DNA of 64,000 bases, taken from positions 868,001 to 932,000 of the forward strand of contig OZ037843.1 of NCBI GenBank assembly GCA_964035575.1. The letters run 5' to 3'. The DNA is from Rhynchopus sp. YZ270_cl-10 (Eukaryota). The notes under the pieces were generated by a model. It was not told where the DNA came from and made no database searches. It saw only the letters and a program-made list of their open reading frames with translations. A program made the position numbers and the translations under genes. Of the stretch, positions 2,037 to 57,266 are shown in pieces (within the stretch, counting starts at the first letter, position 1; each line of letters opens with the position of its first letter).

Positions 2037-2790
2037 TGTGCACTGTGGTGTGTAAAGGTGTGTTCCTGCCTTCGTAAGTGGTGAGGTTGGTGTGTGCTTC
2101 ATTTGGCAGTCTGGTAGTACCCACTCTTTGGCAGAATATTACTGTTGGTCCAGCATGGGGCGCCAAGAGAGAGATGTCGTGACCGACAGCTCGGCCTCAC
2201 TCTTTCTCTTAGGTATTTACCTGGACCTCCTTGCAGGCAGCAAACCGCAACCCAAAGGCGTGGCAGAGCAACTTCGCAGAGCCACACTGCCCTGACCGCT
2301 GGCCATTTATGCTCTGGGTGCTAGCACCCATCATAGCATAGTGGGCAAGTCTGACTCAGCATCTGTATAACCTGCCAGGGTGAACTTGCATAAAAGAGGG
2401 CAGGGGCGGTTAGCACCTGAGGACCGGGGGAAGCCCAACAGAAAGACAAAGACTATGCACTGGTAGGCAGGGTTGTTGAAAAACAAAAAGACCCTGAAGG
2501 CACAAAAACGCCCCCGCATACCCCTCCTCGCCTCCTGTTCGGTAATCTCTCAGGTCAAGACATCGATTCGAGCGGCCAACACCTTCATAGAGTTTCTGGA
2601 GGAATGCATCCCCGGATGCAATTTAAGGTCCTGCCCAGGACCCACATAAAAGAAGGTGTAACTCGGAAGAATCGAAAAGTTACAGAGTTTTTGCGGTCCA
2701 GAATACATACTGCCCAGAAAGGTTACGGATACGGTCTATCACACCGACTCACATAGACACATGGCAATACTGCACGTCGTGGCAACAAAA

Positions 2791-4498
2791 TCACCGAAGA
2801 TAGGAACACACAACACTGCACATCCCGGAAGGAACTGCGTGTGCTGGTGTGCCACTCCCACCCGCCTCCACCCACGCCTTTGCAACGTCCGTGTCACAGC
2901 TCTCACCACGCAGGTACCCACGCACCGCTGTGTTGTACAAATCCCAGTGCTTCTTCTCGCCTATCTGGTACATCCACTCGTCTGCTGCAGTTGAGGTTTC
3001 TTCTTCCATCGAAATCAGCTCAGCCACAACCTGTGCCTCACAGTCTTGAGCAACCTCCACCTTGCACGGAAGCAGACGCAGGTCGTGTTCGCACTCAGCG
3101 TCGCTGAAGCAAAGACGGTTGCAGAGAACGTCGCACCCCAGCATACGTCCTGCACGTTCCATCCCGTGCACATCACGCACAAGTGTCCCCACCATGCTGA
3201 AGCGGCGCATCACATCACAACCCATGTCACCACGCAGCACTGTCCCCATTGCAACACCCACGTTCACAGAGGCTGCCAGGCCAGCTCTCATGAGCATGCT
3301 TGCTGCGTGCAGTGCTGAGGTTGCGTGCGACGCACACGGCTTCGACGCGTTGAACGAGCAGTGGATCCTGTCCCCAACAAAGACGTCCACCATCCCCTGT
3401 TGCCTGCAGGGTCTTCAGAAGAACAGTTGTGAAGAGGTCGGAGAAGCGTGCACTGTCCTCCTCCAGGCGGTGCAGGGTGTCTTTGATGTTCAGTGTCAGC
3501 AGTGTTGCATTCGGGGTTGAGAGCAGGAGAGGCGGTGCACGGAAGGAAGTGCGTCGCACTGCAGCAGACGTGTTCGATGTTGCCGCTGACACTGTGCTTT
3601 CATCGTTACTGCAAGTGCCATCCAGATCACCACCAGGTTCCACACATTCGTCCTTCCCGTCCTCAAAAGGCAGACACGTCTGCGGGAGGTACGCCTTGTA
3701 CACACGCAGGTTCTGCTCCAACTTCCGCAGTGCTGTCGTCATCCCGTCAGGCAGCTCACCACCGTGCTCCTCCAGCAGCTCCGACACCTTCTCCACGTCG
3801 TAGCCAGCAAGGAGCGAGGCGATGTCCTGCACTGTTGCGATTGTGCGCTGCATTGATGCCTGCTCCTTCAGGAGACCACGTGCAAAGCCTCGCGTCACAA
3901 TAAAGTCAACAACAAACACGATAGCAGCAAATAGTAATCGGTTCACAGCTTCGCTCTCCTTGCAAGGCAGCACATCACAGTCACCCATGCTCTCTAAGTA
4001 GGAACGTCGATGTTCTTGATACGCGAGCCCGGGTATGTCGAACAGACCAAACCTCCACGTTTCTTCTGCAGCAAGAACGACCAAATACACCAGTGTGCAC
4101 ACCACGACAACTGTGCTGTACCGTGTGGGCACCTGCATCACCAAGAGAAAGTCCACCACAAGCACGATCATTGGCCAGGCGTATTCATACTCGATGCGCC
4201 AACTTATGTCCACGAGAACCACCGCAACAAAGTACAGTGCGGACTCTGTCACGATGATGAACGTGGTCAGCTTGTACTTTAGCATAATGAAAACAATTGA
4301 ACACAAACCGTTCAGCATGCCTGTGAGAACACCACCCAAATACTGATACCTGCCATGCAAGATCTGCAGCTCAATCACAGAGAACACAATTCCTGATACG
4401 AAGATTACACAGTTGAAGAAAAAGCAAATACTACGTATGAGTCTGCTGTGCGTGTCCAGTGTCCCGTCAAGCGACAGTGCACGCTCGAGACAGCCCAT
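2791..4498 (-). pseudogene. 6TM pseudo-cyclase copy B, frameshifted
   Basis: Paralog of copy A. An 11-bp deletion (acgtctgctgt) at 3396/3397 splits it into ORFs 3227..4564 and 2791..3393. Confidence 0.75.
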
Positions 4499-5858
4499 TG
4501 TGCACTGTGGTGTGTAAAGGTGTGTTCCTGCCTTCGTAAGTGGTGAGGTTGGTGTGTGCTTCATTTGGCAGTCTGGTAGTACCCACTCTTTGGCAGAATA
4601 TCACCAACACATGATCTTGCCACTGAGTCAACCTGCCTCAACAGGTGGATCACAAGCACCACACGACTCATGTGACGTGACAAACCTCAAACCACATCTA
4701 GCTGTGATACGTCCTCTTGATGTGAGGTCAAGGTGGCGGGGTGCAATCATAAAGCTGTCGGAAGCACGTCAGTCACGTGAGTGACAGAAGGACAAAATCT
4801 GGGCTCAGCTCTGGGCATTCTGACACAAAGTTTTATTTTTCCTTCCTTCAAAACTTCAACACACAACGCTTTTTGTTTTTGGGGGACACACAGGGTGCCA
4901 GGTTCTATGCTTCTGCACGCAGCCATCCTGTACCTGTTTGTAATATTGTTTTCCGTGCAATACATGGAGAAACGTTTCGCACTCGAAACTAGGGAAAGCT
5001 TTTTGATAAAAAGTAGCGAACACAAAAACCAGCACGTGTGTTTTATTGTTCACTTTGTCAAAATCTCTTTGTTTTTCTCTTTGTCTATTTTTCCTGCATT
5101 TTTTATTCTCTTCTTTGTACTTTCTTTTGTTTTGGTTGTTGTTAGATAAGCTCAATCGCCTATCGAGTTCTGTGAATAGAATGGAACTCCTTTTCATGTG
5201 TATCCATGGAAATCAGTATCATATGTGATACCGGGCGAAAATTTTTGAAAAAAGGTGTCGTTTGAGAAAAACAAACAAACGGACGCGCTGTGTGAAAAAC
5301 GAGTGTTTCTCTGCGCGTGATATTTTGTGGGGAAGAATAAAACATTATGAAAACAGCTCGTTGCGTTCCCACTATCGTTTCCGCTGCGCTCTCACTAGCG
5401 TTCCCACTCCATTCGGTTTTCTCTTACTTAGAAAAAAAGGAGAAAAAAATATTTTTTTCTGGTTGAAAGTATCGTTTATGTCTGACACCACGTACTGGTT
5501 GGCATACATCATTTGTCAAATATACTGTAGGAATTTCGCCGCACAACATTATTACCCGTGAGATAAAATTACGTATCCCAAAACTAAAGTGAACATCATT
5601 TAACCCGGTGATGGGTGATTCACAAACTGAAACACGTGATAGCACTCGCTATCATTCGTGACATCATTTTTATGATAACAGTGAAATCAAAATGCTGAAC
5701 TCCACTTTGTGTCACTCACCACCTCGTGAAATAATGTTCACTTTATTTCGTGAGATAAATAGTCATTTTTGGGTCAAAAATTGACTTGTCGCGGGTGCCT
5801 CATAATTACGACGTCACGACGCGCGTAAAGTCCTTACGACTCCATGGTGCACGGTACA

Positions 5859-5990
5859 CAGTGTGTCCCAGAATTAATGTCACCTGGCGATATTTTTGTA
5901 AAAATATACGAAGGTGGACAAATTTCGTGACATTTTTCACCTTGTCGTGAATAAAAAGTGTAGGGGATAAAATATTTACATTGCAAAGTT
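5859..5990. mobile_element. Solo Tc1/mariner-like terminus related to the DD37E element
   Basis: cagtgtgtcccagaattaatg resembles the TIR cagtgtgacacagaattaatg at 27309. No partner TIR found; right boundary approximate. Confidence 0.4.
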
Positions 5991-6064
5991 AGGGTTCTTG
6001 TATATCACACTGACTCACACAGACACATGGCAATACTGCACACATGAACGCAGTAGTAACACAA

Positions 6065-7798
6065 TCACCGAAGATAAGAACACACAACACTGCACGTCCC
6101 GGAAGGAACTGCGTGTGCTGGTGTGCCACTCCCACCCGCCTCCACCCACGCCTTCGCAACGTCCGTGTCACGGATCTCCTCATGCAGGTACCCACGCACC
6201 ACTGTGTTGTAGTCCTCCCAGTGCTTCTTCTCGCCTATCTGGTACATCCACTCGTCTGTTGCATTTGAGATTTCTTCTTCCAAAATATCTCCTTCCTTGG
6301 AAACCAGCTCAGCCACAACCTCAGGTTCGCAGTCTTGAGCAACCTCCACCTTGCACGGAAGCAGACGCAGGTCGTGTTCGCACTGAGTTTCGCTGAAGCA
6401 AAGACGGTTGCAGAGAACGTCGCACCCCAGCATACGTCCTGCACGTTCCATCCCGTGCACGTCACGCACAAGTGTCCCCACCATGCTGAAGCGGCGCATC
6501 ACATCACAACCCATGTCACCACGCAGCACTGTTCCCATTGCAACACCCACGTTCACAGAGGCTGCCAGGCCAGCTCTCATGATCGCACTTGCTGCGTGCA
6601 GTGCTGAGGTTGCGTGCGACGCACACGGCTTCGACGCGTTGAACGAGCAGTGGATCCTGTCACCAACAAAGACGTCCACCATCCCACGTCTGCTGTCTGT
6701 TGCCTGCAGGGTCTTCAGAAGAACAGTTGTGAAGAGGTCGGAGAAGCGTGCACTGTCCTCCTCCAGGCGGTGCAGGGTGTCTTTGATGTTCAGTGTCAGC
6801 AGTGTTGCATTTGTGGATGAGAGCAGTAGCGGATGCAGCCAGAAAGAAGTGCGTCGCACTGCAGCAGACGTGTCCGATGATGCTGCTGACACTGTGCTTG
6901 AGTCGTCACTGTCAGTGCCATCCAGCTCACCACCAGGTTCCACACATTCGTCCTTCCCGTCCTCAAACGGCAGACACGTCTGCGGGAGGTACGCCTTGTA
7001 CACACGCAGGTTCTGCTCCAACTTCCGCAGTGCCGCTGTCATCCCCTCAGGCAGCTCACCACCGTGCTCCTCCAGCAGCTCCGCCACCTTCTCCACGTCG
7101 TAGCCAGCAAGGAGCGAGGCGATGTCCTGCACTGTTGCGATTGTGCGCTGCATTGATGCCTGCTCCTTCAGGAGACCACGTGCAAAGCCTCGCGTCACAA
7201 TAAAGTCAACGACGAAGACGGAAGCTGCAAATAGTAATCGGTTCACAGCTCTGCTCTGCTTGCAAGGCAGCACATCACAGTCACCCATGCTATCTAAGTA
7301 GGAACGTCGATGCTCTTGAGGCATGAGCCCGGGCATGTCGAACAGACCAAACCTCCACGTTTCTTCTGCAGCAATGATGACCAAATACACCAATGTGCAC
7401 ACCACGACAATTGTGCTGTACCGTGTGGGCACCTGCATCACCAAGAGAAAGTCCACCATAAGAACCATCATTGGCCAGGCATTTACGTACTCAGGACGCC
7501 AACTTATGTCCAGTAACAGCAGCGAAACATAGTACAGTGCGCACTCTGTCACGATGATGAACGTGGTCAGCTTGTACTTAAGCAGAACCATAATAATAGA
7601 AGAGATGGCACCCATCACAGCTAGAATAAAAGCCCCCACGTATAGATGCCTGCCATGTAAATTCCGCATCTGAACCAGACTAAACGTAGTCGCTGCCATA
7701 AAGACTGCACAGCTGAAGAACAAGAAAATACTACGTATGAGTCTGCTGTGCGTGTCCAGTGTCCCGTCAAGCGACAGTGCACGCTCGAGACAGCCCAT
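6065..7798 (-). CDS. 6TM pseudo-cyclase copy C
   Basis: Intact paralog with divergent TM1-3 and near-identical C-terminal half. Confidence 0.8.
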   Translation of the reverse strand: MGCLERALSLDGTLDTHSRLIRSIFLFFSCAVFMAATTFSLVQMRNLHGRHLYVGAFILAVMGAISSIIMVLLKYKLTTFIIVTECALYYVSLLLLDISWRPEYVNAWPMMVLMVDFLLVMQVPTRYSTIVVVCTLVYLVIIAAEETWRFGLFDMPGLMPQEHRRSYLDSMGDCDVLPCKQSRAVNRLLFAASVFVVDFIVTRGFARGLLKEQASMQRTIATVQDIASLLAGYDVEKVAELLEEHGGELPEGMTAALRKLEQNLRVYKAYLPQTCLPFEDGKDECVEPGGELDGTDSDDSSTVSAASSDTSAAVRRTSFWLHPLLLSSTNATLLTLNIKDTLHRLEEDSARFSDLFTTVLLKTLQATDSRRGMVDVFVGDRIHCSFNASKPCASHATSALHAASAIMRAGLAASVNVGVAMGTVLRGDMGCDVMRRFSMVGTLVRDVHGMERAGRMLGCDVLCNRLCFSETQCEHDLRLLPCKVEVAQDCEPEVVAELVSKEGDILEEEISNATDEWMYQIGEKKHWEDYNTVVRGYLHEEIRDTDVAKAWVEAGGSGTPAHAVPSGTCSVVCSYLR

Positions 7799-8005
7799 TG
7801 CGCACTGTGGTGTGTAAAGGTGTGTTCCTGCCTTCGTAAGTGGTGAGGTTGGTGTGTGCTTCATTTGGCAGTCTCGTAGTACCCACGGGTACACAGGTAC
7901 ACAGGTACACAGCGGTTAGAGGGGTTGGGGTGTTGGGGGATACGGGAAAATGGGGTTACTTCATCTATTTTGCGACAGAAACTGTCCCTGGACACTACAT
8001 GTCCC

Positions 8006-8584: not shown

Positions 8585-8651
8585 CCCCCCCCCCCCCCCT
8601 TGCTTTGAAGGACACAACATGGGCTGTGACATGGAGCCCACCGCACCACAG

Positions 8652-22986: not shown

Positions 22987-24227
22987 GGTATCTGTATGTG
23001 GGACCAAATCCCACAAAAAACCGGGAAAAAAAAAAAAAAAAACTATAGAATTTCGGGATTTTTTGCAATTTTTACCTTACCTTACAGGGTTCTAAGAGGG
23101 GTCCCGAAGGGACTCCAGAGCAACGCGACCCACCATGAAGAGCACGGTCGTCAAGAATCCTAAAAAACGAGTCGGTATTCCGCAAAAAGGGGTTCTTTGA
23201 GTGACTCGTGGTGTAAAAAGCTAGATTTTTACACCGTACCATGAAATTTTTTCGCCTGCGGCGCCATTTTATCTTATTTTTTTTGCTCCGCAAAAAAAAA
23301 ATACAGCTCCCAATGTCTTCCTTTGTCAGTAGCGCTGAATTTTTGGGCGGAAAAACAAGCTGACCCCGATCTTGAAATCTGGATTCCTGGATAGGACACT
23401 AGTTTTCCACACACAAAAACAATGACTGCCTCACACAAAACCATCGTTTTGGTGGGTGCTGGCTATATAAAACCCTGCACACAACCACGCGAAAAACCAA
23501 AAAAAGGGGGTTTCCCACATATTTCCCCCTTTACTGTACCCCCGCCACCCCTATATACATTACTGTTCCTCCCCCTTAAAAAAAAAAACGTTGTTTTTAT
23601 AGAATCCAATAATTGTTTTACTTCCCGCACGATAGATACCAAAACCAGAGTCTTCTCTCCCGCTCCCCCGCCTTCTCCCTCTATTTTGTTCTCTTCAAAA
23701 TCACACCCTCAGTCTTCATTATCCTTATTTATTTTCCCGCTGAAGTAAACCATATTTTCATGATGTAAAAAAGAGTGCATTGTATCATTGTATCATACAT
23801 GGTACACATTGTGCCAGCTTTAGCAGCAACTTTCAACAAGATTGAAGTGACAGACATCTGGCCTGAGGCACTTCTGACAGCACATCGTCACGCTGCTTCC
23901 CGAGGGGAGGGTAAGGGACCCCCTAGACTACCGATCACCTTCACGAGCTGTGTCTGTACTACACAGCACTCTATGCACACCATGTACCACACGCCAACAC
24001 CATGGTGCTTTATTTATGCGATGTTGAAATCGCAAGATGCGTCACCACGTGCCCCTCCTCTCTCTCGTTGTCTATTGTGCGAAGGTGGGTCGGTTCTCGT
24101 AATGAGTGATGTGTGTGGCGCATGCAGGGTGGGTACGAAAGAGCAAAGGGATTTGGGGTTATTGGGATCATCATTTTGTTATACACACACACACAGCAAA
24201 GGGAGAGAGGACACACCCAATAGCACA

Positions 24228-26423
24228 ATGCGCTGTGGCTGTCTTGCGAACGTGCTGTCTCTTGACGAGACGCTAAGCAAAGAGGATGCACGCAAGCGGA
24301 CGCTGTTCTTCGCAATCAATGTCGCAACGTTTGCGTTTATGTTGTTGTTCATCGTCTCCGACCTGAGGCATCTGATGGTGGTGCCGATAGTGGGGGCTTG
24401 CGTGTTCCTGGGTACAGCAACGTCTTTTGTTGGAATGGTGGTGATCCTGTGCCGTGTCAGGATTACCCAAATCCATGTGGTCGTCTGTGCGTGCTGCTTC
24501 GTAGTCACGGTAGTGTTATCAGACCTGGACTCGCGGGCCAAGTCAAGCACCTTCTGGGCACCACTCGTGCTTGTGGTGGACTTCCTTCTTGTGATGCAGG
24601 TGGACGCAAAGTACAGTGTGGGTCTTGTGGCTTGCTCCGTCGTGTGGTTGGTTACAATGGCTGCAGAACAACAGTTCAGGTTTGGGCTGTTTGACATCCC
24701 AGGACTGTCGCCCCAGGATGGTGAGTATGGCAGGCGTGATGCGTGGCGCGAGAAGGTGGAGTGTGAGAAGTTGCCGTGCTCGACGGACGCGTTGCAGGAC
24801 ATGATGAGTGCGCTCATGGTGTTCCTCATCGACTTTGTTGCCACGAGGGGGTTCGCTCGTGTGATCCTGAAGGAGCAGGCATCAATGCAACGCACAATCG
24901 CGACAGTGCAGGACATCGCCTCGCTCCTTGCTGGCTACGACGTGGAGAAGGTGGCGGAGCTGCTGGAGGAGCACGGTGGTGAGCTGCCTGACGGGATGAC
25001 AGAAGCACTGCACGCGTTGGAGCAGAACCTGCGGAAGTACCGTCCCTACCTCCCTGCTGCGCTGTTTGAGGAGGATGAGGACGGTGTGCAGCACACATCT
25101 GTGGCACCACCTGGGCTTGACAGCGAGACAGCAACGATTGTGTTCACAGACATCCGTGCGTCGACGTCGATCTGGGAGAACGCACCTGAGGGGATGCGTG
25201 CTGGACTGCAGATCCACAACGCTGTGATGCGTGATGTGATGCGGATGTGTGGTGGGTACGAAGTGAAGACAATAGGTGACGCATTCATGATTGCCTTTGC
25301 ATCCACTTGCGACGGTGTGGCGTTTGGGTTGCGTGTGCAGGAGCGTCTTTTCGAAGCAGACTGGCCTGCGTCTCTGCTTGAGGATGCACCAATCTGTTCT
25401 CGTCAGGGGTCGCTGTGGGGTGGCCTGACTGTGCGCATTGGTGTGAACACAGGCCCTGTGGCTGTGGAGCAGAACACACTGACGGGACGGATAGACTACT
25501 TTGGACACACAGTGAACGTTGCGTCACGACTTGAGAGCACATGCACGCCCGGTGCTGTGGCTATGCCCTCTGACCTGTGGACGCCTGTGTCTGAGTCGTG
25601 CAGTGCTGTTGCTGGTGTGCCAGAGGCTGTTCACTTGAAGGGTGTGTCTGGGAGCACGTTGGTGTGCTGTGTGTGGCCTGTGACACTTGGGGGACGAAGG
25701 GAAACACCACTTTGCGAGTCTTCTTCGGCAACTGCGAATCTGGCAATGAGTCTTTACACATGCGCGTCGTCTGTTTCACACACAACCTTTGCAAGGACTA
25801 AGGGACGAATGGAACCACCACTTTGCGAGTCTTCTTCGCAAAGTGCCAAACCGAATACGAGTCTTTCCATATGTGCGTCGTCTGTTTCACATAGAAATAA
25901 CCTTGCAGTCTCCACACGCCAGACCTCCGGCACCGTGGGAGTTGCACAGCTTGCAGTTGGTGACGTGGGACAAAACATAGCCTTTCACCAGATGAGCTCA
26001 CGACTCACGACACTGACGATCTCACTGGAGCAGAGTGGAGGGACTCTGGTAACGCTGCTCGGGAACTGTGTCTGTATTGGGTGGAACGTGTCGCGTTCTG
26101 CACCTGCACACATGGAGAACGCGATACGGTTTGTGCAACGCATGTTTGTGAAGCCTGTGAACGGGGTTGGGCTTGCAAGCGGCCCTGTGCAGCACGGGGA
26201 TGTTGGTGCACGGAGCCAGCGCTTTGTGACTGTGATGGGGAATGTTGTGCGTCGGAGTTGGGCGCTGTGCGAGGAGGCTGTGCGTGACGGGGCTGTGTGT
26301 CTGTACGAGCCTCCTGAAGGGACAACACTGCCGACTGCACTTGAAGACGTTCTTGTGCAGCACAAGGGTTGCTACCGGGTGCTTGAGGCACAGAACAACT
26401 GGGAACGCGACAATGTGTTTTAG
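24228..26423 (+). CDS. 6TM receptor-type adenylate cyclase with an intact catalytic domain and a second degenerate cyclase domain
   Basis: TIVFTDIRAST, GYEVKTIGDAFM, VRIGVNTG, IDYFGHTVNVASRLE: both metal Asp, the ATP-specifying Lys/Asp and NxxxR are present. Start at MRCGCL. Confidence 0.9.
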   Translation: MRCGCLANVLSLDETLSKEDARKRTLFFAINVATFAFMLLFIVSDLRHLMVVPIVGACVFLGTATSFVGMVVILCRVRITQIHVVVCACCFVVTVVLSDLDSRAKSSTFWAPLVLVVDFLLVMQVDAKYSVGLVACSVVWLVTMAAEQQFRFGLFDIPGLSPQDGEYGRRDAWREKVECEKLPCSTDALQDMMSALMVFLIDFVATRGFARVILKEQASMQRTIATVQDIASLLAGYDVEKVAELLEEHGGELPDGMTEALHALEQNLRKYRPYLPAALFEEDEDGVQHTSVAPPGLDSETATIVFTDIRASTSIWENAPEGMRAGLQIHNAVMRDVMRMCGGYEVKTIGDAFMIAFASTCDGVAFGLRVQERLFEADWPASLLEDAPICSRQGSLWGGLTVRIGVNTGPVAVEQNTLTGRIDYFGHTVNVASRLESTCTPGAVAMPSDLWTPVSESCSAVAGVPEAVHLKGVSGSTLVCCVWPVTLGGRRETPLCESSSATANLAMSLYTCASSVSHTTFARTKGRMEPPLCESSSQSAKPNTSLSICASSVSHRNNLAVSTRQTSGTVGVAQLAVGDVGQNIAFHQMSSRLTTLTISLEQSGGTLVTLLGNCVCIGWNVSRSAPAHMENAIRFVQRMFVKPVNGVGLASGPVQHGDVGARSQRFVTVMGNVVRRSWALCEEAVRDGAVCLYEPPEGTTLPTALEDVLVQHKGCYRVLEAQNNWERDNVF

Positions 26424-27308
26424 TTGTGCTTTCGACTGCATGCGTTCTGTTGGCAGTTTCGGCCTCTGTGCGTGGGCACAACACTGGCGAAGGCTTGTGC
26501 ACCGTTAGTTGTGGAAATGCACCGAGTTTGTGTTTTATTGTTATTGTTCTGTGCAGCGTAATATTGTCACATTCACATTCACACACATCTTGCCCCTTCT
26601 CCATGAAGCGCCAGTGTACACCTCAGATGCACTGTATTCTTGTTGTATTGTTTTGGGTGGTGTTTCCGTTTGCTCTTAATTTGTTTTTGTACTTTAGTTT
26701 GCCTTGAGATGTGAGGATGCACGATTACACCTACACAGATCAGTGGTCCTCTGCATCTGACACGCCCTGCAGGGTCGTGTGAGTGACGCAGTGTCACTCC
26801 TGTGGAGAGCCTTCCGCACGGCTGTGGCACTGTGGCAGCGCTCTGCAGGGTGTCCTGCTCTCAAGGGTTTTGTTGTCTTCTTCATTAATTGTGATTTCTT
26901 TGTGTTGTTTGTGTGAAGTGGCTTTACAGTCACTACTCTCAATGCAAATGTTATGACTTTACTTTACACCTTCACAACAAGTCTGTCTGCAAAGACGTAC
27001 CCTAATCACAATCATTACACTGGCACAATCTGCGTGTGCTGGAAACAACAAGGGGATCTTGATCTCCCAGGTGGTGAAACTGTTCCCTGTCTTTAAAAGA
27101 GACGGGAGTCAAAAAATTGATACCGTAATTGGTGTGGCTGAAGGGTGATTCGCACTTTTCCGCACTTTCTCGCACTTTTTCCGCACCTATTCGCACTTTT
27201 TCCGCACTTTTTCCGCACTTGTTCGCACTTTTAGCATGTAGGCTTGCTGACTGTCTTTGCCAAATACACAGGCACACAGGTACAGGTACGGTAGGTACCC
27301 ACAGAATA

Positions 27309-28712
27309 CAGTGTGACACAGAATTAATGGCCGATGAAGACATTTTATATAAAAACGGCAAATTTTGACAAGGACATATTCAAAACACCCCCAAAACATA
27401 AAATATTTACGCCCAGGAACACAATAAAAGCAAAAATATAATGGTTAAGGGTAAAGTGAACACTGAGGCCACGAGGGAAGGGTTGCGCCTACAGGCAGCG
27501 TCGCTAGTCGTTGTTGGCGGTAAGAGCCATGATGAGGTGGCGGAGTTGCTGAACGTTGCGAAGAGGAGTTTGGGTAGGTGGGTGAAGGAGTACCGCGCTG
27601 GAGAGCGGAATTTTTCGGACAAGCCAGGGAGGGGACGCAAGAGATCGGCCACCACCGACACCGTTAAGAATAGGGTGGTTAGACACATGCGGGGCAAGCG
27701 GTTTCAGTCTTGCAGGAAAGTATCGTCGCGACTACAGATTTCGAGGGAGAGTGTCCGCAGGTGCCTGAAGGAGAAGGGGCTGAAGCCCGTTCAAACGAAG
27801 AGCAAACCAAAGCTCTCGGAAAAGAACATCACTGCCCGGATAGAGTTTGCTGAAACGCATCGAAACACCGACTGGTCAAAGGTGATGTTCACCGATGAAA
27901 AAGACTTTTGGCTTTTTTCTCGGGTGAGCAAGAAGAACGATGTTGTCTGGGTTGCAGATGGTGATGAGCCGCCCCCAACCGTTGATAAGGTCAGGGCTAC
28001 GCAGAAGGTTCACGTCTGGGGAGGAATCACCACCAGAGGTAAGACGAAGCTCTATTTCTATGACGGTGCTCTCAATGCAGAGAAGTACCGTACGCTCGTC
28101 TTACAGAAAGCGCTCAAAGAAATAAAAGAACTCCTGCCTGACAGTAGCTACACGTTTCAGCAGGATGGGGCACCCTGCCACACTGCGAACGTTACTCAAG
28201 CATTCCTCTCCTCCCAACCTTTCTCGTTCCTCCCTAAAGCTGACTGGCCAGGCAACTCCCCTGATCTCAATCCTATTGAGAACCTGTGGGCCAAGCTGCA
28301 GACTGCAGTCAACGAACGGGAGCCCAAAGACGTGTCAGCACTTAAACGTGCCATCAACAAGGAATGGTCCAAGATGGACAATAGCTTCGTTGCACGTTAC
28401 ATCATGTCAATGCCACGACGCCTAGACGCAGTTCGCAATTCCAACGGAATGCACACAAAATACTAATGCATGCTCTATTTATTTTTGTGCACCCACTCGT
28501 TTGTACTGCTACACTGTATTTTTTTTTTTTACACATACACCCTTTTTTACCAAAAAGGGATATTTCCATGTTAATATTTTCCCCACACACACACTTTTCA
28601 TACACGGCCAGTTGAAAATGCAATGAAATGAGTCAAATTTTGCCTATTTTTTAGAATAATATAACAATTTTTACAAAATGTCATCATCGGCCATTAATTC
28701 TGTGTCACACTG
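27309..28712 (+). mobile_element. Intact Tc1/mariner DD37E (TRT-like) transposon
   Basis: TA TSD, TIR cagtgtgacacagaattaatggccgatga, single transposase ORF. Confidence 0.95.
27441..28466 (+). CDS. IS630/Tc1/mariner transposase, DD37E
   Basis: HTH region, FTDEK, QQDGAPCH, WPGNSPDLNPIE; 37 residues counted between the second D and E. Confidence 0.95.
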   Translation: MVKGKVNTEATREGLRLQAASLVVVGGKSHDEVAELLNVAKRSLGRWVKEYRAGERNFSDKPGRGRKRSATTDTVKNRVVRHMRGKRFQSCRKVSSRLQISRESVRRCLKEKGLKPVQTKSKPKLSEKNITARIEFAETHRNTDWSKVMFTDEKDFWLFSRVSKKNDVVWVADGDEPPPTVDKVRATQKVHVWGGITTRGKTKLYFYDGALNAEKYRTLVLQKALKEIKELLPDSSYTFQQDGAPCHTANVTQAFLSSQPFSFLPKADWPGNSPDLNPIENLWAKLQTAVNEREPKDVSALKRAINKEWSKMDNSFVARYIMSMPRRLDAVRNSNGMHTKY

Positions 28713-29544
28713 TACTGTGTGCTGTAGGTACTGTGTACCTGTGTACCTACACAGGTACACAGACACAGTCAGCAAGCCAACATGGTAAAAGTGCGAATAA
28801 GTGCGGAAAAAGTGCAAAAACCGTACCTACAGTACCTACAGTACACAGTGTTCAACTTTTACAAGGTGGGGTAAAATTTTTTCCGCACCTATTCGCACTT
28901 TTTCAGCACTTTTTCAGCACTTTTCCGCACTTTATGCTCCCCCCCGTTCAGCCACACCAGTAATTGTAAAAATATTGGGACGTAAAAAAGTTGAAACGTA
29001 AAAATGTTGGGCCGTAAAAATGTTGGGACAGCTGGGCGAAAAATTCCCGTCCCAACATTTTTACGGCCCAACATATTTACGTTCGGGAATTTTTACGTAG
29101 ATTTTGTTAGGGAAGATTTGTCTTAGCTAGCAAAAAAAAAAATTTTTTTTTTTCGATTACCTAGCGAGTAGGCGGGTTGAACGTCACTGGCACGTGTCAA
29201 AGTTTTCAAGAGGGCGTGGGAGAAAAACGCTAAGACAAATAGGCTCAAGCCAAAGTAGCCCAAAAAATGTTGGGACGTAAAAATGTTGGGACGAGCGAGC
29301 CTTTTTTGGGCTGTCCCAACATTTTTACGGCCCAACATTTTTACAATTACGGTACTATCGTAGCCACTACCCCTGTGTGATGTACTCAATGACCCGGACC
29401 TCGGCTAATTTGCAGAACGACGGTTTTTTTACACCCCGTCATTGTACCAAGGCAAAGTACACTGTTCACGAGAGGGCTTTGTATTTCAACTCCGTTGCGG
29501 CCTCTGTGCGTATGGGCAGAACACTGAAGCACGATTTGGAAGGC

Positions 29545-30010
29545 TTTAATGTGGTGGGCACACTTGTGCGTGACGTGCATGGGATGAAACGTGCAGGACG
29601 TATCCTTGGTTGCGACGTGCTGTGCAACCGTTTGTGCTTCAGCGATGCTGAGTGCGAACACGACCTGCGTCTACTTCCGTGCAAGGTAGGCGTGTCTGCG
29701 ACCTGTGCGGAACATGAACTGGTGGCTGAGCTTCTTCTGCACGACACACCTTCGGACAGTCCTGCAGAGGAATGGATGTACACCATCGGGAACAGTGAGT
29801 AGGAGCACGACAACACAACAGTGCGGAAGTACCTGAAAGGCGACGTGTCTGCTGCAGCGATTGAAGAGGTTGCATAGGGTTGTTCTTGTTCACGGAGCCC
29901 GTTGAGCGTGCATCCCTCCACAGTGAAGGGCGGGCTTCTGAGCGTGGCCTTGGCACGACCGCTGCAGGACAATGAACGGCTGATGCAACTGGTTTGCTCT
30001 CTCGATGATT
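29545..30010 (+). pseudogene. Decayed C-terminal fragment of a pseudo-cyclase gene
   Basis: VVGTLVRDVHGMKRAGRILGCD..EEWMYTIG followed by in-frame stops; the 5' part is missing next to the MITE nest. Confidence 0.75.
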
Positions 30011-30200
30011 GGCTGATGCACAGTACCTCATCCACACACCTGCATTCTTTTCCAAGAAGTGCATATTTTTGTCTCTTCAATACACACATTCCGTCTTTGG
30101 TATTATGTCTCACCTTCCCCGCTCGCAGCCTCTTGCCCACAGCACCCAGTCCCCACAAGAACCGTACACAGCCAAGAGAGAGGACACACCCAATAGCACA

Positions 30201-31979
30201 ATGCGCTGTGGCTGTCTTGCGAACGTGCTGTCTCTTGACGAGACGCTAAGCAAAGAGGATGCACGCAAGCGGACGCTGTTCTTCGCAATCAATGTCGCAA
30301 CGTTTGCGTTTATGTTGTTGTTCATCGTCTCCGACCTGAGGCATCTGATGGTGGTGCCGATAGTGGGGGCTTGCGTGTTCCTGGGTACAGCAACGTCTTT
30401 TGTTGGAATGGTGGTGATCCTGTGCCGTGTCAGGATTACCCAAATCCATGTGGTCGTCTGTGCGTGCTGCTTCGTAGTCACGGTAGTGTTATCAGACCTG
30501 GACTCGCGGGCCAAGTCAAGCACCTTCTGGGCACCACTCGTGCTTGTGGTGGACTTCCTTCTTGTGATGCAGGTGGACGCAAAGTACAGTGTGGGTCTTG
30601 TGGCTTGCTCCGTCGTGTGGTTGGTTACAATGGCTGCAGAACAACAGTTCAGGTTTGGGCTGTTTGACATCCCAGGACTGTCGCCCCAGGATGGTGAGTA
30701 TGGCAGGCGTGATGCGTGGCGCGAGAAGGTGGAGTGTGAGAAGTTGCCGTGCTCGACGGACGCGTTGCAGGACATGATGAGTGCGCTCATGGTGTTCCTC
30801 ATCGACTTTGTTGCCACGAGGGGGTTCGCTCGTGTGATCCTGAAGGAGCAGGCATCAATGCAACGCACAATCGCAACAGTGCAGGACATCGCCTCGCTCC
30901 TGGCTGGGTACGATGTGGAGCAGGTGGCAGAGCTGCTGGAGGAGCACGGTGGTGAGCTGCCTGATGGGATGACAGCGGCACTGCGGAGGTTGGAGCAGAA
31001 CCTGCGTGTGTACAAGGCGTACCTCCCGCAGACGTGTCTGCCGTTTGAAGTGGAAAAAGGTGGCTTTGCAAAAGATCGTTCCTTATCTCTGTCGCGAGCA
31101 GAGAAGACCAGTGAGACATCTGGAGAAGAGAGCTCCGTGTCTTCAAACTTAAGCTCGTCAGTAACCAAAGTGTTTCGCCCGTTCATTTGTGTGCAGCCTA
31201 TCTGTTTGTCGACTGTGAAGTCGACGCTGCTGACACTGAACATCAAAGACACCCTGCACCGCCTGGAGGAGGACAGTGCACGCTTCTCTGACCTCTTCAC
31301 AACTGTTCTTCTGAAGACCCTGCAGGCAACAGACAGCAGACGTGGGATGGTGGACGTCTTTGTTGGGGACAGGATCCACTGCTCGTTCAACGCGTCGAAG
31401 CAGTGTGCGTCGCACGCAACCTCAGCACTGCACGCTGCCACGCTCCTGATCCAGACCTGCATGGAGGTGGACACATGCGGTATGAACCTTGGTGTTGCGA
31501 GTGGGAAGGTGCTGCGTGGTGACATGGGTTGTGATGTGATGCGTCGCTTCAGCATGGTGGGGACACTTGTGCGTGACGTGCACGGGATGGAACGTGCAGG
31601 ACGTATGCTGGGGTGCGACGTTGTCTGCAACCGTCTTTGCTTCAGCGACGCTGAGTGCGAACACGACCTGCGTCTGCTTCCGTGCAAGGTGGAGGTTGCT
31701 CAAGACTGCGAACCTGAGGTTGTGGCTGAGCTGGTAGTTCCGAAGCACGCACCCCACGCAGCTGCCGTTGATGAGTGGATGTACCAGATCGGAGGGAAGA
31801 AGCACTGGGAGGACTACAACCAGGCAGTGCGGAAGTACCTGAAGGGTGAGGTGTCTGCTGACGACGTCAATAGTGCTGCAGCAACAGACAACCTGGCAGG
31901 CACACCTGTACACGTGGCTGCGCGCTCCTACAAGGATGACGTGCTGCAGTTGACGTGCCATTCAGGAAGGCTTAATTAG
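30201..31979 (+). CDS. 6TM pseudo-cyclase whose sensor half matches the active cyclase at 24228
   Basis: ~30176-30900 matches ~24203-24927 nearly base for base; the C-terminus is of the TLNI/VFVGD/EWMY pseudo-cyclase type. Confidence 0.85.
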   Translation: MRCGCLANVLSLDETLSKEDARKRTLFFAINVATFAFMLLFIVSDLRHLMVVPIVGACVFLGTATSFVGMVVILCRVRITQIHVVVCACCFVVTVVLSDLDSRAKSSTFWAPLVLVVDFLLVMQVDAKYSVGLVACSVVWLVTMAAEQQFRFGLFDIPGLSPQDGEYGRRDAWREKVECEKLPCSTDALQDMMSALMVFLIDFVATRGFARVILKEQASMQRTIATVQDIASLLAGYDVEQVAELLEEHGGELPDGMTAALRRLEQNLRVYKAYLPQTCLPFEVEKGGFAKDRSLSLSRAEKTSETSGEESSVSSNLSSSVTKVFRPFICVQPICLSTVKSTLLTLNIKDTLHRLEEDSARFSDLFTTVLLKTLQATDSRRGMVDVFVGDRIHCSFNASKQCASHATSALHAATLLIQTCMEVDTCGMNLGVASGKVLRGDMGCDVMRRFSMVGTLVRDVHGMERAGRMLGCDVVCNRLCFSDAECEHDLRLLPCKVEVAQDCEPEVVAELVVPKHAPHAAAVDEWMYQIGGKKHWEDYNQAVRKYLKGEVSADDVNSAAATDNLAGTPVHVAARSYKDDVLQLTCHSGRLN

Positions 31980-41649: not shown

Positions 41650-42408
41650 GGTTACGTTTTATTGTTATTCTGTGCAGCATAATAGTTCATATTCATGTGC
41701 ACTTACGTTTGTTTCACGTTCCTTTGTGCCGTAGACGTCTGTCAGTATCACTCCTGGAGAGCCTTCCGCACGGCTGTGGCAGTGGTGACGCTCTGCAGGG
41801 TGTCCTGCTCTCAAGAGTTTTGTTGTCTTCTTCATTAATTGTGCTATTTTTGTATTGTTTGTGAAGTGGCTTTACAGTCACCACTCCCTGGAACAAGACG
41901 TCCTTCTGTAGCCAGTGCACAGACTCACTCTTAGGGTGGGGTGCTGCACTCAGCGAGACAATCTGCATATTCATTTGTAATTATTCAGTAGTTTTCAGAA
42001 CACTCCATTTTCCATGGTGCATATATGCCACCCTTCTGGTGGTTGCATTAACCTTGTGGTTATGAACTGTCCACAGGTCAAACCTGGGGGTACCAGACTG
42101 TCCTTGTCCCCCTTTTTATTTCTCCCCTTCCCCCTTCTAGTGATGGCTGTATTCTTACCTATCATAAATAATACAGCACAACACTGCTGGTGACGCACCA
42201 CAGTTGTATTCAGCATTTAGGGCAAGCCATGAACCATTGTACCTGTTGCGTTTCCTCTGCACATCCGTGGCGATGTTCAGGAACGCCTTTTCCAGCCATC
42301 TCCCGTTTTTATTTTGCACACAGAGTCTGTCTTCCTTGCTTCGAACAAAATAATCCAACCTCACCACTTACGAAGGCAATAATACACCTTTACACACCAC
42401 AGTGCACA

Positions 42409-44142
42409 ATGGGCTGTCTCGAGCGTGCACTGTCGCTTGACGGGACACTGGACACGCACAGCAGACTCATACGCACTCTCTGCTTTTTCTTCAACTGCGT
42501 TACATTCGTAACAGGGATTCTGTTTACTGTGACAGAGGTGCAGAGTTTACATGGTAGGTATCAGTTTTTGGGATGTATTTTTTTAGGCATGCTGAACAGC
42601 TTGTGTTCGATGATTTTCATTATGCTAAAGTACAAGCTGACCACGTTCGTTATCGTGACAGAGTCCGCATTTTACTATATTGCGCTGGTGGTCATGGACA
42701 TAAGTTGGCGAGTTGAGTACGAAAACGCGTGGCCAATGATCGTGCTTTTGGTGGACTTTCTCTTGGTAATGCAAGTGCCCACACGGTACAGCACAATTGT
42801 CGTGGTGTGCACACTGGTGTATTTGGTCATCATCGCTGCAGAAGAAACGTGGAGGTTTGGTCTGCTCGACATGCCCGGGCTCGCGTATCAAGAACATCGA
42901 CGTTCCTACTTAGATAGCATGGGTGACTGTGATGTGCTGCCCTGCAAGAAGAGCGGAGCTGTGAACAACTTAGCATTTGCAGCTATCGTCTTCTTTGTTG
43001 ACTTTATTGTGACGCGAGGCTTTGCACGTGGTCTCCTGAAGGAGCAGGCATCAATGCAACGCACAATCGCGACAGTGCAGGACATCGCCTCGCTCCTTGC
43101 TGGCTACGACGTGGAGAAGGTGGCGGAGCTGCTGGAGGAGCACGGTGGTGAGCTGCCTGACGGGATGACGACAGCACTGCGGAAGTTGGAGCAGAACCTG
43201 CGTGTGTACAAGGCGTACCTCCCGCAGACGTGTCTGCCGTTTGAGGACGAGAAGGACGAATGTGTGGAACCTGGTAGTGAGCAGGATGGCACTGGCAGTA
43301 ACGATGAAACCACAGTGTCAGCGGCAACATCGAGCATGTTGTCTCCAGTTGCGGCTACACGCCCTTCCTTTTGGCTGCAGCCTCTCCTGCTCTCATCCAC
43401 AAATGCAACACTGCTGACACTGAACATCAAAGACACCCTGCACCGCCTGGAGGAGGACAGTGCACAGTTCTCCGACCTCTTCACAACTGTTCTTCTGAAG
43501 ACCCTGCAGGCAACAGACAGCAGACGTGGGATGGTGGACGTCTTTGTTGGGGACAAGATCCACTGTTCGTTCAACGCGTCGAAGCAGTGTGCGTCGCACG
43601 CAACCTCAGCACTGCACGCAGCAAGTGCGATCATGAAAGCTGGCCTGGCAGCCTCTGTGAACGTGGGTGTTGCAATGGGGACAGTGCTGCGTGGTGACAT
43701 GGGTTGTGATGTGATGCGCCGCTTCAGCATGGTGGGGACACTTGTGCGTAACGTGCACGGGATGGAACGTGCAGGACGTATGCTGGGGTGCGACGTTGTC
43801 TGCAACAGGATGTGCTTCAGCGACGCTGAGTGCGAACACGACCTGCGTCTGCTTCCGTGCAAGGTGGAGGTTGCTCAAGACTGCGAGGCACAGGTTGTGG
43901 CTGAGCTGGTTTCGAAGAACGAAGATATTTTGGAAATCTCAAATGCAACAAACGAATGGATGTACCAGATAGGTGGGAAGAAGCACTGGGATTTGTACAA
44001 CACAGTGGTGCGTGGGTACCTGCGTGGTGAGAGCTGTGACACGGACGTTGCAAAGGCGTGGGTGGAGGCGGGTGGGAGTGGCACACCAGCACACGCAGTT
44101 CCTTCCGGGACGTGCAGTGTTGTGTGTTCCTATCTTCGGTGA
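42409..44142 (+). CDS. 6TM pseudo-cyclase copy D
   Basis: Intact paralog closest to copy A; also shares ~110 bp of 3' flank with it. Confidence 0.8.
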   Translation: MGCLERALSLDGTLDTHSRLIRTLCFFFNCVTFVTGILFTVTEVQSLHGRYQFLGCIFLGMLNSLCSMIFIMLKYKLTTFVIVTESAFYYIALVVMDISWRVEYENAWPMIVLLVDFLLVMQVPTRYSTIVVVCTLVYLVIIAAEETWRFGLLDMPGLAYQEHRRSYLDSMGDCDVLPCKKSGAVNNLAFAAIVFFVDFIVTRGFARGLLKEQASMQRTIATVQDIASLLAGYDVEKVAELLEEHGGELPDGMTTALRKLEQNLRVYKAYLPQTCLPFEDEKDECVEPGSEQDGTGSNDETTVSAATSSMLSPVAATRPSFWLQPLLLSSTNATLLTLNIKDTLHRLEEDSAQFSDLFTTVLLKTLQATDSRRGMVDVFVGDKIHCSFNASKQCASHATSALHAASAIMKAGLAASVNVGVAMGTVLRGDMGCDVMRRFSMVGTLVRNVHGMERAGRMLGCDVVCNRMCFSDAECEHDLRLLPCKVEVAQDCEAQVVAELVSKNEDILEISNATNEWMYQIGGKKHWDLYNTVVRGYLRGESCDTDVAKAWVEAGGSGTPAHAVPSGTCSVVCSYLR

Positions 44143-55584: not shown

Positions 55585-56215
55585 TTGTGGTGCTGTGTCG
55601 CTATGTTGTGTGCAGTATTGCCATTTGTCTATGTGTGTCGGTGTGATAGACCGTATCCGTAACTTATCTGGGGAGCATAATATTATATTCTGGACCGCAA
55701 TCACTGTAACTTTTCGATTCTTCCGAGTCACCTCTTCTGTGTTCCAGATATGTTGTGGTAGGTGTTTTTGTGGGGGGAGTTTTGCGGGGTCTTTCCAGCA
55801 ACCCTGCCACTTCTTAACACTACCAGTGCATAGTCTTTGTCTTTCTTTTTGGGTATGCGGGACTCTCCCCTTGTCAGGGTGCTAAACGTCCCTGACCCTT
55901 CCCCATGCAAAGTTGAACCCTGGCAGGGTATATTTTTGCTGGGGCGTGGCTTCCCGATGCCACGACGGGTGCTCGCACCCAGAGCGTTAAACAGCGACAA
56001 ACGGCCAGGCCAGGACTTCGTTTCTGCTGCACCAATAGGTTACGATGTGTTGCCTGTAAGGACGTCCATACAAGAGAAGGGGTGAGTCCTTACTGTCGGT
56101 GCAGACATTAGACGCCAAGAGACATGTTGTGACCCCGCCCCCCTAGGCATAGTGTGCACGAACATTTTTGGTTCGTCGACGAACATCGACGAACAATCCC
56201 CCCCCCCCCCCCCCC

Positions 56216-57248
56216 TAGGGGGGTCCGTCCGGCCGTTTTTGCTGTCCAAAACCGCTTTTTTTGAAGAAAACCCCCGAAAAAACACTCAAAACCACCCAAA
56301 ACCCCCCCGAAACCACCCGAAAACCACCCAAAATTACGAAAAATGCACTTCTGAGCACCAATTTTTATTTTTTTCTGACTTTTTGGGCTTTAGAGTGCGA
56401 AAATGTCAAAAAGGGGGGTATACGGGTAGTTTAAGCGTTGCAGACACATACACATCCCCAAAAATACACCCAAGGACCCCAAAAAGCTGCAAAAACCACA
56501 CATTTCCACCTCGGGACCCCAGCGGAGGTGGGCTGAGGTGGTTTTTGGGTGTTTTGAATTTACATCAGTTTTTTTTGATGAAAAAATCGTGTTTTCTAAC
56601 CGTTTTTAGCCGGGAGTAAGTGTTGCAAAGTGTTGCATAGCCGGCTCATACCCGTTGCATGCCATTTCATGGCCCAAAAAAGCCTACCGAGTGTCCCAAA
56701 TGCTATTTTTCACCCCACATGAGGTCTGGGAGTCATTTCCTGGGGTATTTTGACACTATGACGACTGTCATATTACTTTTTTTGGGGTTTTCAGGACGGG
56801 CTATGTTTGAAGGAGGGGCTATGTTTAAGCTTTCGAGGCACACACGCACACTGAAAAATGCATCTGGGACCCACACAGGACCCCCAAAAAGCTGTAAAAC
56901 TATATATTACCACCTCGGGAACCCAGAGGAGGTGGACCGAGGTGTTTTTCGGGTCTTTAGATGGAGTTTTATATGATCGGAGAATTTTTTTGTCAAGTGT
57001 TGCATTTTGCCACAAAGTGTGACGCGAGCGTGACGGTATTTTGAGGGGTTTTTCACAAAAAAATCAATTTTTTTTAGTCGGGAAAGTCTCTGTAGAGGTT
57101 GTCAGGTGGTTTATTGGGATATTTGGGTGATCCCCAGGGCGATTTGCGCCCAGGTACGACCTTTTTAGTGGATTTCTTCACCTAAATTTCAAAAAAATGG
57201 TTTTGGACAGCAAATCCTTAAGGAATTCCTTCTACGTGGACCCCCCTA
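56216..57248. mobile_element. TAGGGG-terminal TIR element flanked by poly-C
   Basis: TIR taggggggtcc / ggacccccccta-like; C-runs on both sides. Confidence 0.7.
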
Positions 57249-57266
57249 CCCCCCCCCCCCCCCCCT

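What the first reader, a model, noticed from the sequence alone, without database searches (positions are those of the whole stretch)
24228..31979. The same 6TM sensor is wired to an active adenylate cyclase and to a dead pseudo-cyclase
Seen: genes 24228 and 30201 are nearly identical from the 5' leader through the TM region, then diverge just after the LKEQASMQRTIATVQDIASLLAGYDVE..GELP helix. One continues into a cyclase with all catalytic residues, the other into the degenerate TLNI/VFVGD/RDVHG domain. That helix is also nearly identical at DNA level in all other 6TM paralogs, whose sensors are very different. Established: class III cyclases work as dimers with shared active sites. Inference: the linker acts as a recombination hub that swaps sensor and output modules, giving matched enzyme/pseudo-enzyme pairs (decoys, heterodimer partners or non-cAMP outputs) in a combinatorial receptor system.
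Basis: partly seen in the sequence, partly recalled or inferred. Interest (0 to 1): 0.8.

Follow-up and report, generated by a model that had tools for sequence, protein, structure and literature searches.

The report
Sensor swapping between diplonemid cyclase receptors
In what is likely a diplonemid (marine flagellate) genome, two neighbouring genes carry an identical membrane domain, a likely sensor, joined in one to a predicted working cAMP-making enzyme and in the other to a predicted dead relative, and such matched pairs recur in a family of hundreds of genes, likely through gene conversion.

Summary
Genes 24228 and 30201 are identical over 699 bp (leader, six-helix membrane domain, start of linker). 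One continues into a trypanosome-type adenylate cyclase with all six canonical residues, plus an unnoticed second, degenerate domain. The other continues into a degenerate class III domain. Relatives are diplonemid. Among 283 family proteins, output class changes 49 times on the membrane-domain tree. 22 reciprocal-best cyclase/pseudo-cyclase pairs share 75-100% membrane-domain identity, 16 of them on one contig, so exchange is recurrent and local. Corrections: junctions spread over about 70 residues (aa 204-273), not one point. The linker is near-identical only locally (95% or more in 7 of 282). Conserved output blocks are homogenised too, so the 'hub' is largely the last shared homology. The membrane domain best matches the 6TM anchors of Rv1625c and mammalian AC9. 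Most likely, gene conversion keeps creating matched live/dead receptors that would co-dimerise and damp cAMP, like mammalian paired receptors. Activity, expression, dimerisation and selection for pairing are untested.

The parts
24228..26423 (+). Gene A (731 aa): 6TM domain, linker, class III adenylate cyclase, Ser-rich spacer, degenerate cyclase-like domain (PS2)
   Evidence: ORF; PF00211 E 3.6e-24; model with six long helices before the linker
24203..24901 (+). 699-bp tract identical to 30176-30874 (25 bp of leader, whole 6TM domain, first 12 linker codons); likely recent conversion tract
   Evidence: pairwise alignment, 0 mismatches; 0 of 621 nt differ in codons 7-213
24867..25055 (+). Linker of A (aa 214-276): helix continuing TM6, then two helices. 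24866-25000 is identical to the pseudo-cyclase gene at 43035; cyclase-class sequence from about 25003
   Evidence: all 18 proteins with a linker 90% or more identical to A's are pseudo-cyclase class
25128..25679 (+). Predicted active adenylate cyclase domain (aa 301-484), trypanosome receptor-cyclase type
   Evidence: family profile best hit T. brucei GRESAG4.1 1fx2, E 3.7e-32; canonical residues kept in 122-124 of 124; Z 12.6, rmsd 2.7, 151 aligned
25926..26387 (+).
   Evidence: hhalign PS1-PS2 88%, E 3.6e-7; PS2 profile finds B at E 5.9e-10; 130 aa or more matched in 125 of 131 cyclase-class proteins
27197..28820 (+). Tc1/mariner-type element between the two genes (open transposase ORF 27441-28466; inverted repeats 27197-27353 and 28668-28820)
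   Evidence: DDE_3 E 7e-14 and HTH_Tnp_Tc3_2; 80.5% inverted repeat
29552..29854 (+). Remnant of the 3' part of another pseudo-cyclase gene
   Evidence: 77% to 31555-31860; stops in frame
30201..31979 (+). Gene B (592 aa): same 6TM domain, linker, Ser-rich spacer, pseudo-cyclase PS1
   Evidence: ORF; model
30176..30874 (+). Second copy of the 699-bp identical tract
   Evidence: fork in run X2's contigs at exactly 24203/30176
31218..31736 (+). PS1 pseudo-cyclase domain (aa 340-512): first Asp to Asn, Lys to Val, second Asp kept, Asn to Arg, Arg to Gly
   Evidence: distant relatives P0348 and P0357 match PF00211 at E 3e-5 and 9e-4
42190..44142 (+). Pseudo-cyclase paralog with another sensor type and a linker core identical to gene A's
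318..7894 (-). Three pseudo-cyclase paralogs (318-2102; 2791-4564 with a frame break; 6065-7894) of the local subfamily
53857..64000 (+). Three more paralogs (53857-55584; 58893-60740; from 62241, with a frame break); 58798-64000 is a 99.5% inverted copy of 2809-8005

Best explanation
These two genes belong to a family of hundreds of six-helix membrane proteins, likely diplonemid receptors, that end either in a predicted active adenylate cyclase or in a predicted dead pseudo-cyclase, and local gene conversion likely copies the membrane domain from one class onto the other, giving matched pairs that would co-dimerise and damp cAMP output. SHOWN: the identity tract; the two output classes and their residues; recurrence of matched pairs; their tendency to share a contig; junctions in the TM6-linker zone; silent-site homogenisation. 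INFERRED, recombination (about 0.85): gene A is a chimera, with a pseudo-cyclase-type front (sensor and linker to aa 258) joined to a cyclase module whose domain is about 95% identical in genes with unrelated sensors; a later conversion made the A and B sensors identical. INFERRED, function (about 0.4): class III cyclases have their active sites at a dimer interface, and in Rv1625c TM4-6 and the helical domain form that interface. A and B are identical or nearly so there, so if co-expressed they would form mixed dimers. PS1 lacks one metal Asp and the Lys/Asn/Arg set, so it could complete neither active site. B would then be a ligand-matched dominant-negative or threshold-setting partner.
For: 699 bp at 0 mismatches beside 7 of 135. 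49 class changes on the membrane-domain tree of 283 of 300 proteins; 1 would be expected without exchange; 500 shuffles gave mean 92.7, minimum 79. IQ-TREE subset: 0 of 200 bootstrap trees with one change, at least 15 forced. 22 of 33 reciprocal-best cross-class pairs have 75% or more TM identity, graded 100, 100, 100, 97, 95, 94, 93, 91, 87, 86 and lower, which suggests events of different ages; 16 of 22 share a contig length against 12.6% of random pairs. The 10 strongest tracts start at aa 1-12 and end at aa 200-266. 712 of 1047 cyclase-class pairs with 93% or more identical cyclase domains have TM identity under 50%. 6TM fold: the top two of 48,161 chains are Rv1625c (Z 12.8, rmsd 5.3, 194 aligned) and mammalian AC9 (Z 11.7), next 7.9. 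PS1 keeps its altered residues (Asn 158 of 159, second Asp 159 of 159; Asn 93 of 100 filled rows and Asp 109 of 122 in more distant relatives). Precedents read as passages: PMC9433096, PMC4821796, PMC4413820 (rac-B1 negatively regulates rac-A), PMC6027212 (dominant-negative ESAG4).
Against: Junctions are spread over aa 204-273, and 20 of 37 tracts end inside the membrane domain, as ordinary homology-bounded conversion predicts. Conserved output blocks are homogenised just as much. Most family members have no near-identical partner of the other class: 17 of 283 have one at 90% or more. The collection is clustered at 90%, which hides same-class duplicates and inflates the cross-class share. dN/dS in TM1-3 among four array copies is 0.77, so positive selection on the sensor is not shown; PS1 core dN/dS is 0.72 among those copies (few differences) and 0.47 for B against them. 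The 5' fork is at the expected place in 1 of 5 runs laid (X2); X1, X3 and X5 have contigs that run through 24203 unbroken. The 6TM Z-score lies at the tool's caution level for helical bundles and identity is 8-9%. Cyclase-class proteins already carry their own pseudo-domain, so a partner in trans may be redundant.
Confidence: 0.5

Rival explanations
1. Neutral shuffling: both classes are independent receptors (cAMP output, and an unknown non-cAMP output through PS1). Conversion among neighbours in mixed arrays produces matched sensors as a transient by-product, with no joint function.
For: Exchange is local (16 of 22 pairs on one contig; linker, TM and output all more alike within contigs). 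Tract ends are scattered. All conserved blocks are homogenised. PS1 keeps its own invariant residues and also sits behind other sensors (gene 38974, E 1.4e-14), as a stand-alone output would. Gene conversion in trypanosome cyclase arrays is known (PMC1855330, passages).
Against: The strongest tracts cover the whole membrane domain rather than patches. Even unselected pairs would share a dimer interface.
Confidence: 0.36
2. The pseudo-cyclase is an activator (prozyme-like or C1-like partner): the mixed dimer is the active or ligand-responsive species.
For: The second metal Asp is kept in 159 of 159. Dead paralogs that activate enzymes are known in trypanosomatids (PMC5201418, PMC3663545; search listing and abstract start only). 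Mammalian cyclases are pseudo-heterodimers of two 6TM halves (PMC9552081, listing).
Against: The first metal Asp is Asn in 158 of 159, and gene A has a full residue set for homodimer catalysis.
Confidence: 0.1
3. Assembly artefact: the identical tract is a mis-join or a polishing collapse.
For: Zero mismatches over 699 bp; no listed contig spans the linker; no fork at 24203 in X1, X3, X5; nearby copies carry frame breaks and a 99.5% duplicate.
Against: In X2, A's upstream contig (depth 117) and B's (depth 96, 0 differences, 30 letters into the tract, one short of the tool's 31-letter rule) both overlap one shared contig of depth 271 that starts exactly at 24203/30176. Other pairs at 86-97% TM identity cannot be collapses.
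Confidence: 0.04

Closest known systems
Trypanosomatid receptor adenylate cyclases (ESAG4/GRESAG4; Leishmania rac-A and rac-B1)
   Same: Same catalytic subfamily (best sequence and fold hits 1fx2/1fx4); variable sensor on a conserved cyclase; arrays with gene conversion (PMC1855330); one paralog inhibits another (PMC4413820); dominant-negative dead mutants work (PMC6027212). All read as passages.
   Different: Those have Venus-flytrap ectodomains and one membrane helix. Here the sensor is 6TM, a second degenerate domain follows the cyclase, and the dead partner is a separate, deeply diverged class (the cyclase profile does not find it, E 0.03) numbering at least 169 proteins in this sample.
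6TM class III cyclases: mycobacterial Rv1625c/Cya and mammalian membrane cyclases
   Same: Predicted 6TM bundle running into a cytosolic helix; top two fold hits. The membrane domain is proposed as a receptor and is exchangeable in engineered chimeras (PMC4821796, PMC9433096, passages).
   Different: 8-9% identity; the linker has two extra helices; the cyclase is trypanosome-type; swapping is natural and recurrent in hundreds of copies.
Mammalian paired receptors (Siglec-11/16, Siglec-5/14)
   Same: Gene conversion keeps ligand-binding parts alike while outputs differ (PMC5701461, PMC4042635; search listing and abstract start only).
   Different: No homology. There the opposed outputs are shown by experiment; here the pairing is enzyme against pseudo-enzyme in a protist, and function is untested.
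Bacterial 6TM-HAMP class IIIb cyclases (Rv3645 type)
   Same: 6TM, helical linker, cyclase order (PMC4821796, passages).
   Different: The linker gave no HAMP match in Pfam or fold searches; HAMP kinship is only my impression from recalled motifs.

Membership tests
Class III adenylate cyclase (gene A, first domain) | PF00211 profile and fold | tested here: met
   E 3.6e-24; 1fx2 Z 12.6, rmsd 2.7, 151 aligned
Class III adenylate cyclase (gene A, first domain) | Two metal Asp, Lys and Asp for adenine, Asn and Arg for the transition state (roles recalled; partly in PMC6027212 passages) | tested here: met
   kept in gene A and in 122-124 of 124 relatives
Class III adenylate cyclase (gene A, first domain) | cAMP synthesis as a dimer | not testable with these tools
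   no assay
Class III cyclase fold (PS1 of gene B) | Homology to the class III domain | tested here: met
   no direct Pfam hit for B; all 8 PDB hits of the family profile are class III cyclases but weak (E 0.12-0.29); Atlas 0.93, 29 of 30 hits PF00211; relatives P0348 and P0357 match PF00211. The model of this domain is low-confidence.
Active class III cyclase (PS1 of gene B) | Canonical catalytic residues | tested here: not met
   first Asp is Asn in 158 of 159, Lys is Val in 157, Asn is Arg in 151, Arg is Gly/Val/Ala/Leu in 158; positions set by motif anchors and the alignment, since hhalign of cyclase against PS1 failed
Trypanosomatid receptor adenylate cyclases | Venus-flytrap ectodomain and a single membrane helix | tested here: not met
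   six predicted helices and no large ectodomain; P0085 and P0086 do have a solute-binding sensor on the same cyclase module
Rv1625c/mammalian-type 6TM cyclase anchor | 6TM bundle continuing into the helical domain | tested here: inconclusive
   top two of 48,161 chains, Z 12.8 and 11.7 against 7.9 next, but rmsd 5.2-5.3, 8-9% identity and at the caution level for helical bundles
Rv1625c/mammalian-type 6TM cyclase anchor | Ligand sensing by the membrane domain | not testable with these tools
   TM1-3 is the most variable part; no ligand known
HAMP domain (linker) | Two helices with an extended connector forming a parallel four-helix dimer | tested here: inconclusive
   no Pfam HAMP hit; the monomer model shows a helical connector; no dimer model obtained
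Paired receptors made by gene conversion | Near-identical sensor, different output, neighbouring loci | tested here: met
Paired receptors made by gene conversion | Co-expression, shared ligand and opposed signalling | not testable with these tools
   no expression or functional data obtained

The most novel reading that the evidence does not exclude
Diplonemids run a paired-receptor system for cAMP sensing. Hundreds of 6TM sensors are recombined, under selection, between an enzyme class and a dedicated pseudo-enzyme class, so that a ligand can drive both a cyclase and its own matched antagonist or a second, non-cAMP pathway. This would be a single-cell parallel to mammalian activating/inhibitory receptor pairs, and a natural library for finding ligands of 6TM cyclase anchors. 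The missing fork in other runs may mean that this pair is so young that it is polymorphic between isolates.
Probability: 0.3. Interest if true: 0.85.

Novelty: new variant of a known kind. Interest (0 to 1): 0.64.

Why it matters
Whether the 6TM anchors of class III cyclases are receptors, and for what, is an open question so far probed with engineered chimeras. Here hundreds of naturally varied 6TM domains sit on a nearly constant cyclase, and several exist in both a live and a dead version, which gives ready matched controls for ligand screens. It also points to a large pseudo-cyclase family that Pfam does not detect, with relatives in at least three named diplonemid species, and to a way in which these abundant marine protists could diversify chemical sensing. 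I found no description of it in the searches run. The D. papillatum genome paper never uses 'cyclase' in its main text, but its supplement lists expanded adenylate cyclase orthogroups, so the expansion as such is on record.

Tried and rejected
No whole genome is held, so genome-wide work used proteins: the top 120 of 592, 120 of 442 and 120 of 178 hits, 300 distinct. 17 lacking a full membrane domain or linker were dropped. Contig length served as the contig label; that all lie in one assembly is assumed, not shown. Complex prediction of A with B was not available, so there is no verdict on binding. No RNA holder was listed. No contig spans the linker; parts without cover in X3 and X4 were not used. 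hhalign of cyclase against PS1 or PS2 gave nothing. Foldseek on the B model gave no match at E 0.001, and the PS1 model is low-confidence. HAMP was not found by Pfam or fold search; the linker profile does match the linkers of P0085, P0086 and gene 38974 weakly (E 3e-6 to 6e-5 on 3 targets). The AU test did not finish, and the shuffle control of that tree is uninformative because 22 of its 50 rows were chosen as pairs. Atlas hits for the membrane domain were under 0.9 (MASE and AC_N sets), leads only. The residue table at the end was mis-indexed and is replaced. Earlier findings of the scan: none. Rejected: a single-point recombination site (junctions are spread); further output types on the 6TM sensor (none among 300 proteins, or the new representatives). 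Considered, untestable: the tract begins just after a possible trans-splice acceptor, which would fit an RNA-templated event.
Full report
WHAT IS IN THE WINDOW. The window is eukaryotic-looking DNA with intronless ORFs; no whole genome is held. Gene A (24228-26423, 731 aa) and gene B (30201-31979, 592 aa) lie 6 kb apart on one strand. Between them are a Tc1/mariner element and a pseudo-cyclase remnant. They are identical from 24203 to 24901 (699 bp), differ at 7 of 135 nt in linker codons 214-258, and part at about 25003. At the linker's mismatch rate, a run that long without a mismatch has a chance near 1e-16 (computed for 698 bp). Seven more 6TM genes in the window share the linker core. A and the copy at 43035 are identical over 135 bp there, although 22 of 47 shared amino acids in the preceding membrane half use different codons. 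This points to recent DNA exchange, not protein conservation alone. Those seven copies are one subfamily, so the window holds two sensor types.

ANATOMY. Both models show six membrane helices, mostly at pLDDT above 90. TM6 runs on to residue 235, followed by helices at about 239-250 and 255-274. Against 48,161 chains the two best matches are the membrane anchors of Rv1625c (Z 12.8, rmsd 5.3, 194 aligned) and mammalian AC9 (Z 11.7); the next is 7.9. This is suggestive, but at the tool's caution level for helical bundles. A's cyclase is of the trypanosome receptor type (1fx2, E 3.7e-32) and keeps all six canonical residues, as do 122-124 of 124 relatives (residue roles recalled, partly given in PMC6027212 passages). 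A ends in a second degenerate domain, PS2, matched over 130 aa or more in 125 of 131 cyclase-class proteins. B's domain, PS1, is homologous to PS2 and derives from the class III fold. It has Asn for the first metal Asp (158 of 159), lacks the Lys, Asn and Arg, and keeps the second Asp (159 of 159). In more distant relatives the Asn (93 of 100 filled rows) and Asp (109 of 122) persist. A HAMP identity for the linker was neither shown nor excluded.

ORGANISM AND BREADTH. Named relatives come from Rhynchopus humris, R. euleeides and Diplonema papillatum (4 named of 20 proteins looked up), so the source is likely a diplonemid. A profile of the pseudo-cyclase class finds 1904 clusters at 50% identity (E 0.001). 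Of the new representatives, 110 are 6TM-linker-PS1 and 22 are 6TM-linker-cyclase-PS2. The PS1 architecture is found in named Rhynchopus and D. papillatum proteins, and a 6TM-cyclase piece in D. papillatum (P0448), so both classes likely predate this genome.

GENOME-SCALE TEST. Three searches gave 300 distinct close relatives (131 cyclase class, 169 PS1 class); 283 with a full front half were analysed. Output class changes 49 times on the membrane-domain tree (shuffles: mean 92.7, minimum 79 of 500). So class is clustered but far from one split. An IQ-TREE subset of 50 rows, 22 of them chosen as pairs, needs at least 15 changes on well-supported branches; its AU test did not finish. Of 33 reciprocal-best cross-class pairs, 22 have 75% or more membrane-domain identity, three of them about 100%, and 16 of the 22 share a contig length (12.6% at random). 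Estimated junctions run from aa 204 to 273. Of 37 non-redundant cross-class tracts, the 10 strongest start at aa 1-12 and end at 200-266; overall 17 end at 196-276 and 20 end earlier. All 18 proteins whose linker is 90% or more identical to A's are PS1 class, so A is best read as a PS1-type front joined to a cyclase module near aa 258. That module is itself mobile: 712 of 1047 pairs with 93% or more identical cyclase domains have membrane domains under 50% identical. Two proteins put it behind a solute-binding sensor at 91-92% identity, joined after a different linker.

LIMITS ON THE 'HUB'. The linker is near-identical only locally (95% or more to A in 7 of 282, median 76%). It is the last homology before non-homologous outputs, and pairs picked for whole-sensor identity must break there. 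The PS1 core is as homogenised at silent sites as the linker (dS 0.16 and 0.155, against 1.47 and 2.66 in the flanking parts). Clustering of the collection at 90% hides same-class duplicates, so the share of cross-class nearest neighbours at 90% or more (17 of 30) is inflated. Selection for pairing is not shown.

ASSEMBLY CHECK. Only contigs were available. In X2, A's upstream contig (depth 117) and B's (depth 96) both overlap a shared contig (depth 271) that starts at 24203/30176; B's piece reaches 30 letters into the tract, one short of the tool's bridging rule, and X2 may be the source sample. X1, X3 and X5 run through 24203 without a fork. In X1 a deeper contig starts 44 bp further in. This may reflect isolate differences or assembler simplification. 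No piece spans the linker. The pairs at 86-97% identity argue against collapse.

MECHANISM. Shown: recurrent local exchange of whole sensors between two output classes. Inferred: gene conversion or unequal crossing-over, bounded by the leader and the TM6-linker zone. Inferred with less support: mixed dimers. In Rv1625c, TM4-6 form the dimer interface and the membrane and helical domains guide active-site assembly (PMC9433096, passages). 6TM anchors can be swapped and stay ligand-regulated (PMC4821796, passages). Since A and B are identical there and PS1 can supply neither half of an active site, B would damp A. Precedents: Leishmania rac-B1 negatively regulates rac-A (PMC4413820, passages), and dominant-negative ESAG4 (PMC6027212, passages). 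The main rival is that PS1 is an independent non-cAMP output and matched pairs are by-products.

NOVELTY. Cyclase arrays with conversion (PMC1855330, passages; PMC7719234, passages), dead regulators and conversion-made paired receptors (PMC5701461, listing and abstract start) are each known. Cyclase expansions in diplonemids appear in supplement file 5 of PMC10161547 (rows seen); its main text has no 'cyclase'. Seven searches found no account of this 6TM family, of the PS1 class or of sensor exchange between them; subscription papers and bioRxiv supplements were not searchable. Verdict: a real, new variant of a known kind; interest 0.64.

Noticed in passing
window 38974-41649 (+): 891-aa gene with a large N-terminal region, a related linker and a PS1-like domain (PS1 profile E 1.4e-14); no Pfam hit. 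It shows the pseudo-cyclase behind a non-6TM sensor. Parts of its 3' flank match gene A's 3' flank.
   Followed up: partly
window 2809-8005 and 58798-64000: 5.2-kb inverted duplication at 99.5% holding two pseudo-cyclase genes; the two copies of one gene both have a frame break near the same place, with different local sequence.
   Followed up: partly
window 27197-28820: Tc1/mariner element with an open 341-aa transposase ORF; contigs of the laid runs show many copies and joints skipping about 27306-28713.
   Followed up: no
window 9241-10464 and 32653-34710 (+): Two BspA-type leucine-rich-repeat genes with similar N-termini; the first has a weak ubiquitin-like match (E 0.004); the second has many 25-aa repeats.
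   Followed up: no
window 47159-48193 and 51709-51872: Near-perfect 7-bp tandem array of about 1 kb, with an inverted shorter copy 3.5 kb away; the long ORFs over it are likely spurious.
   Followed up: no
window 7999-8593, 36590-37490, 57267-58601: Non-coding repeats with internal inverted symmetry, possibly non-autonomous mobile elements, next to the receptor genes.
   Followed up: no
window 25691-25891: 111-bp-spaced tandem duplication (83%) in gene A's Ser-rich spacer; spacer length varies among relatives.
   Followed up: no
window 10937-15235 (+): 1432-aa coiled-coil-like protein with no Pfam match.
   Followed up: no
proteins P0085, P0086: Solute-binding (PF13416/PF01547) sensor with one membrane helix on the same cyclase-PS2 module, on a contig of the same length as their closest 6TM relatives.
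   Followed up: partly
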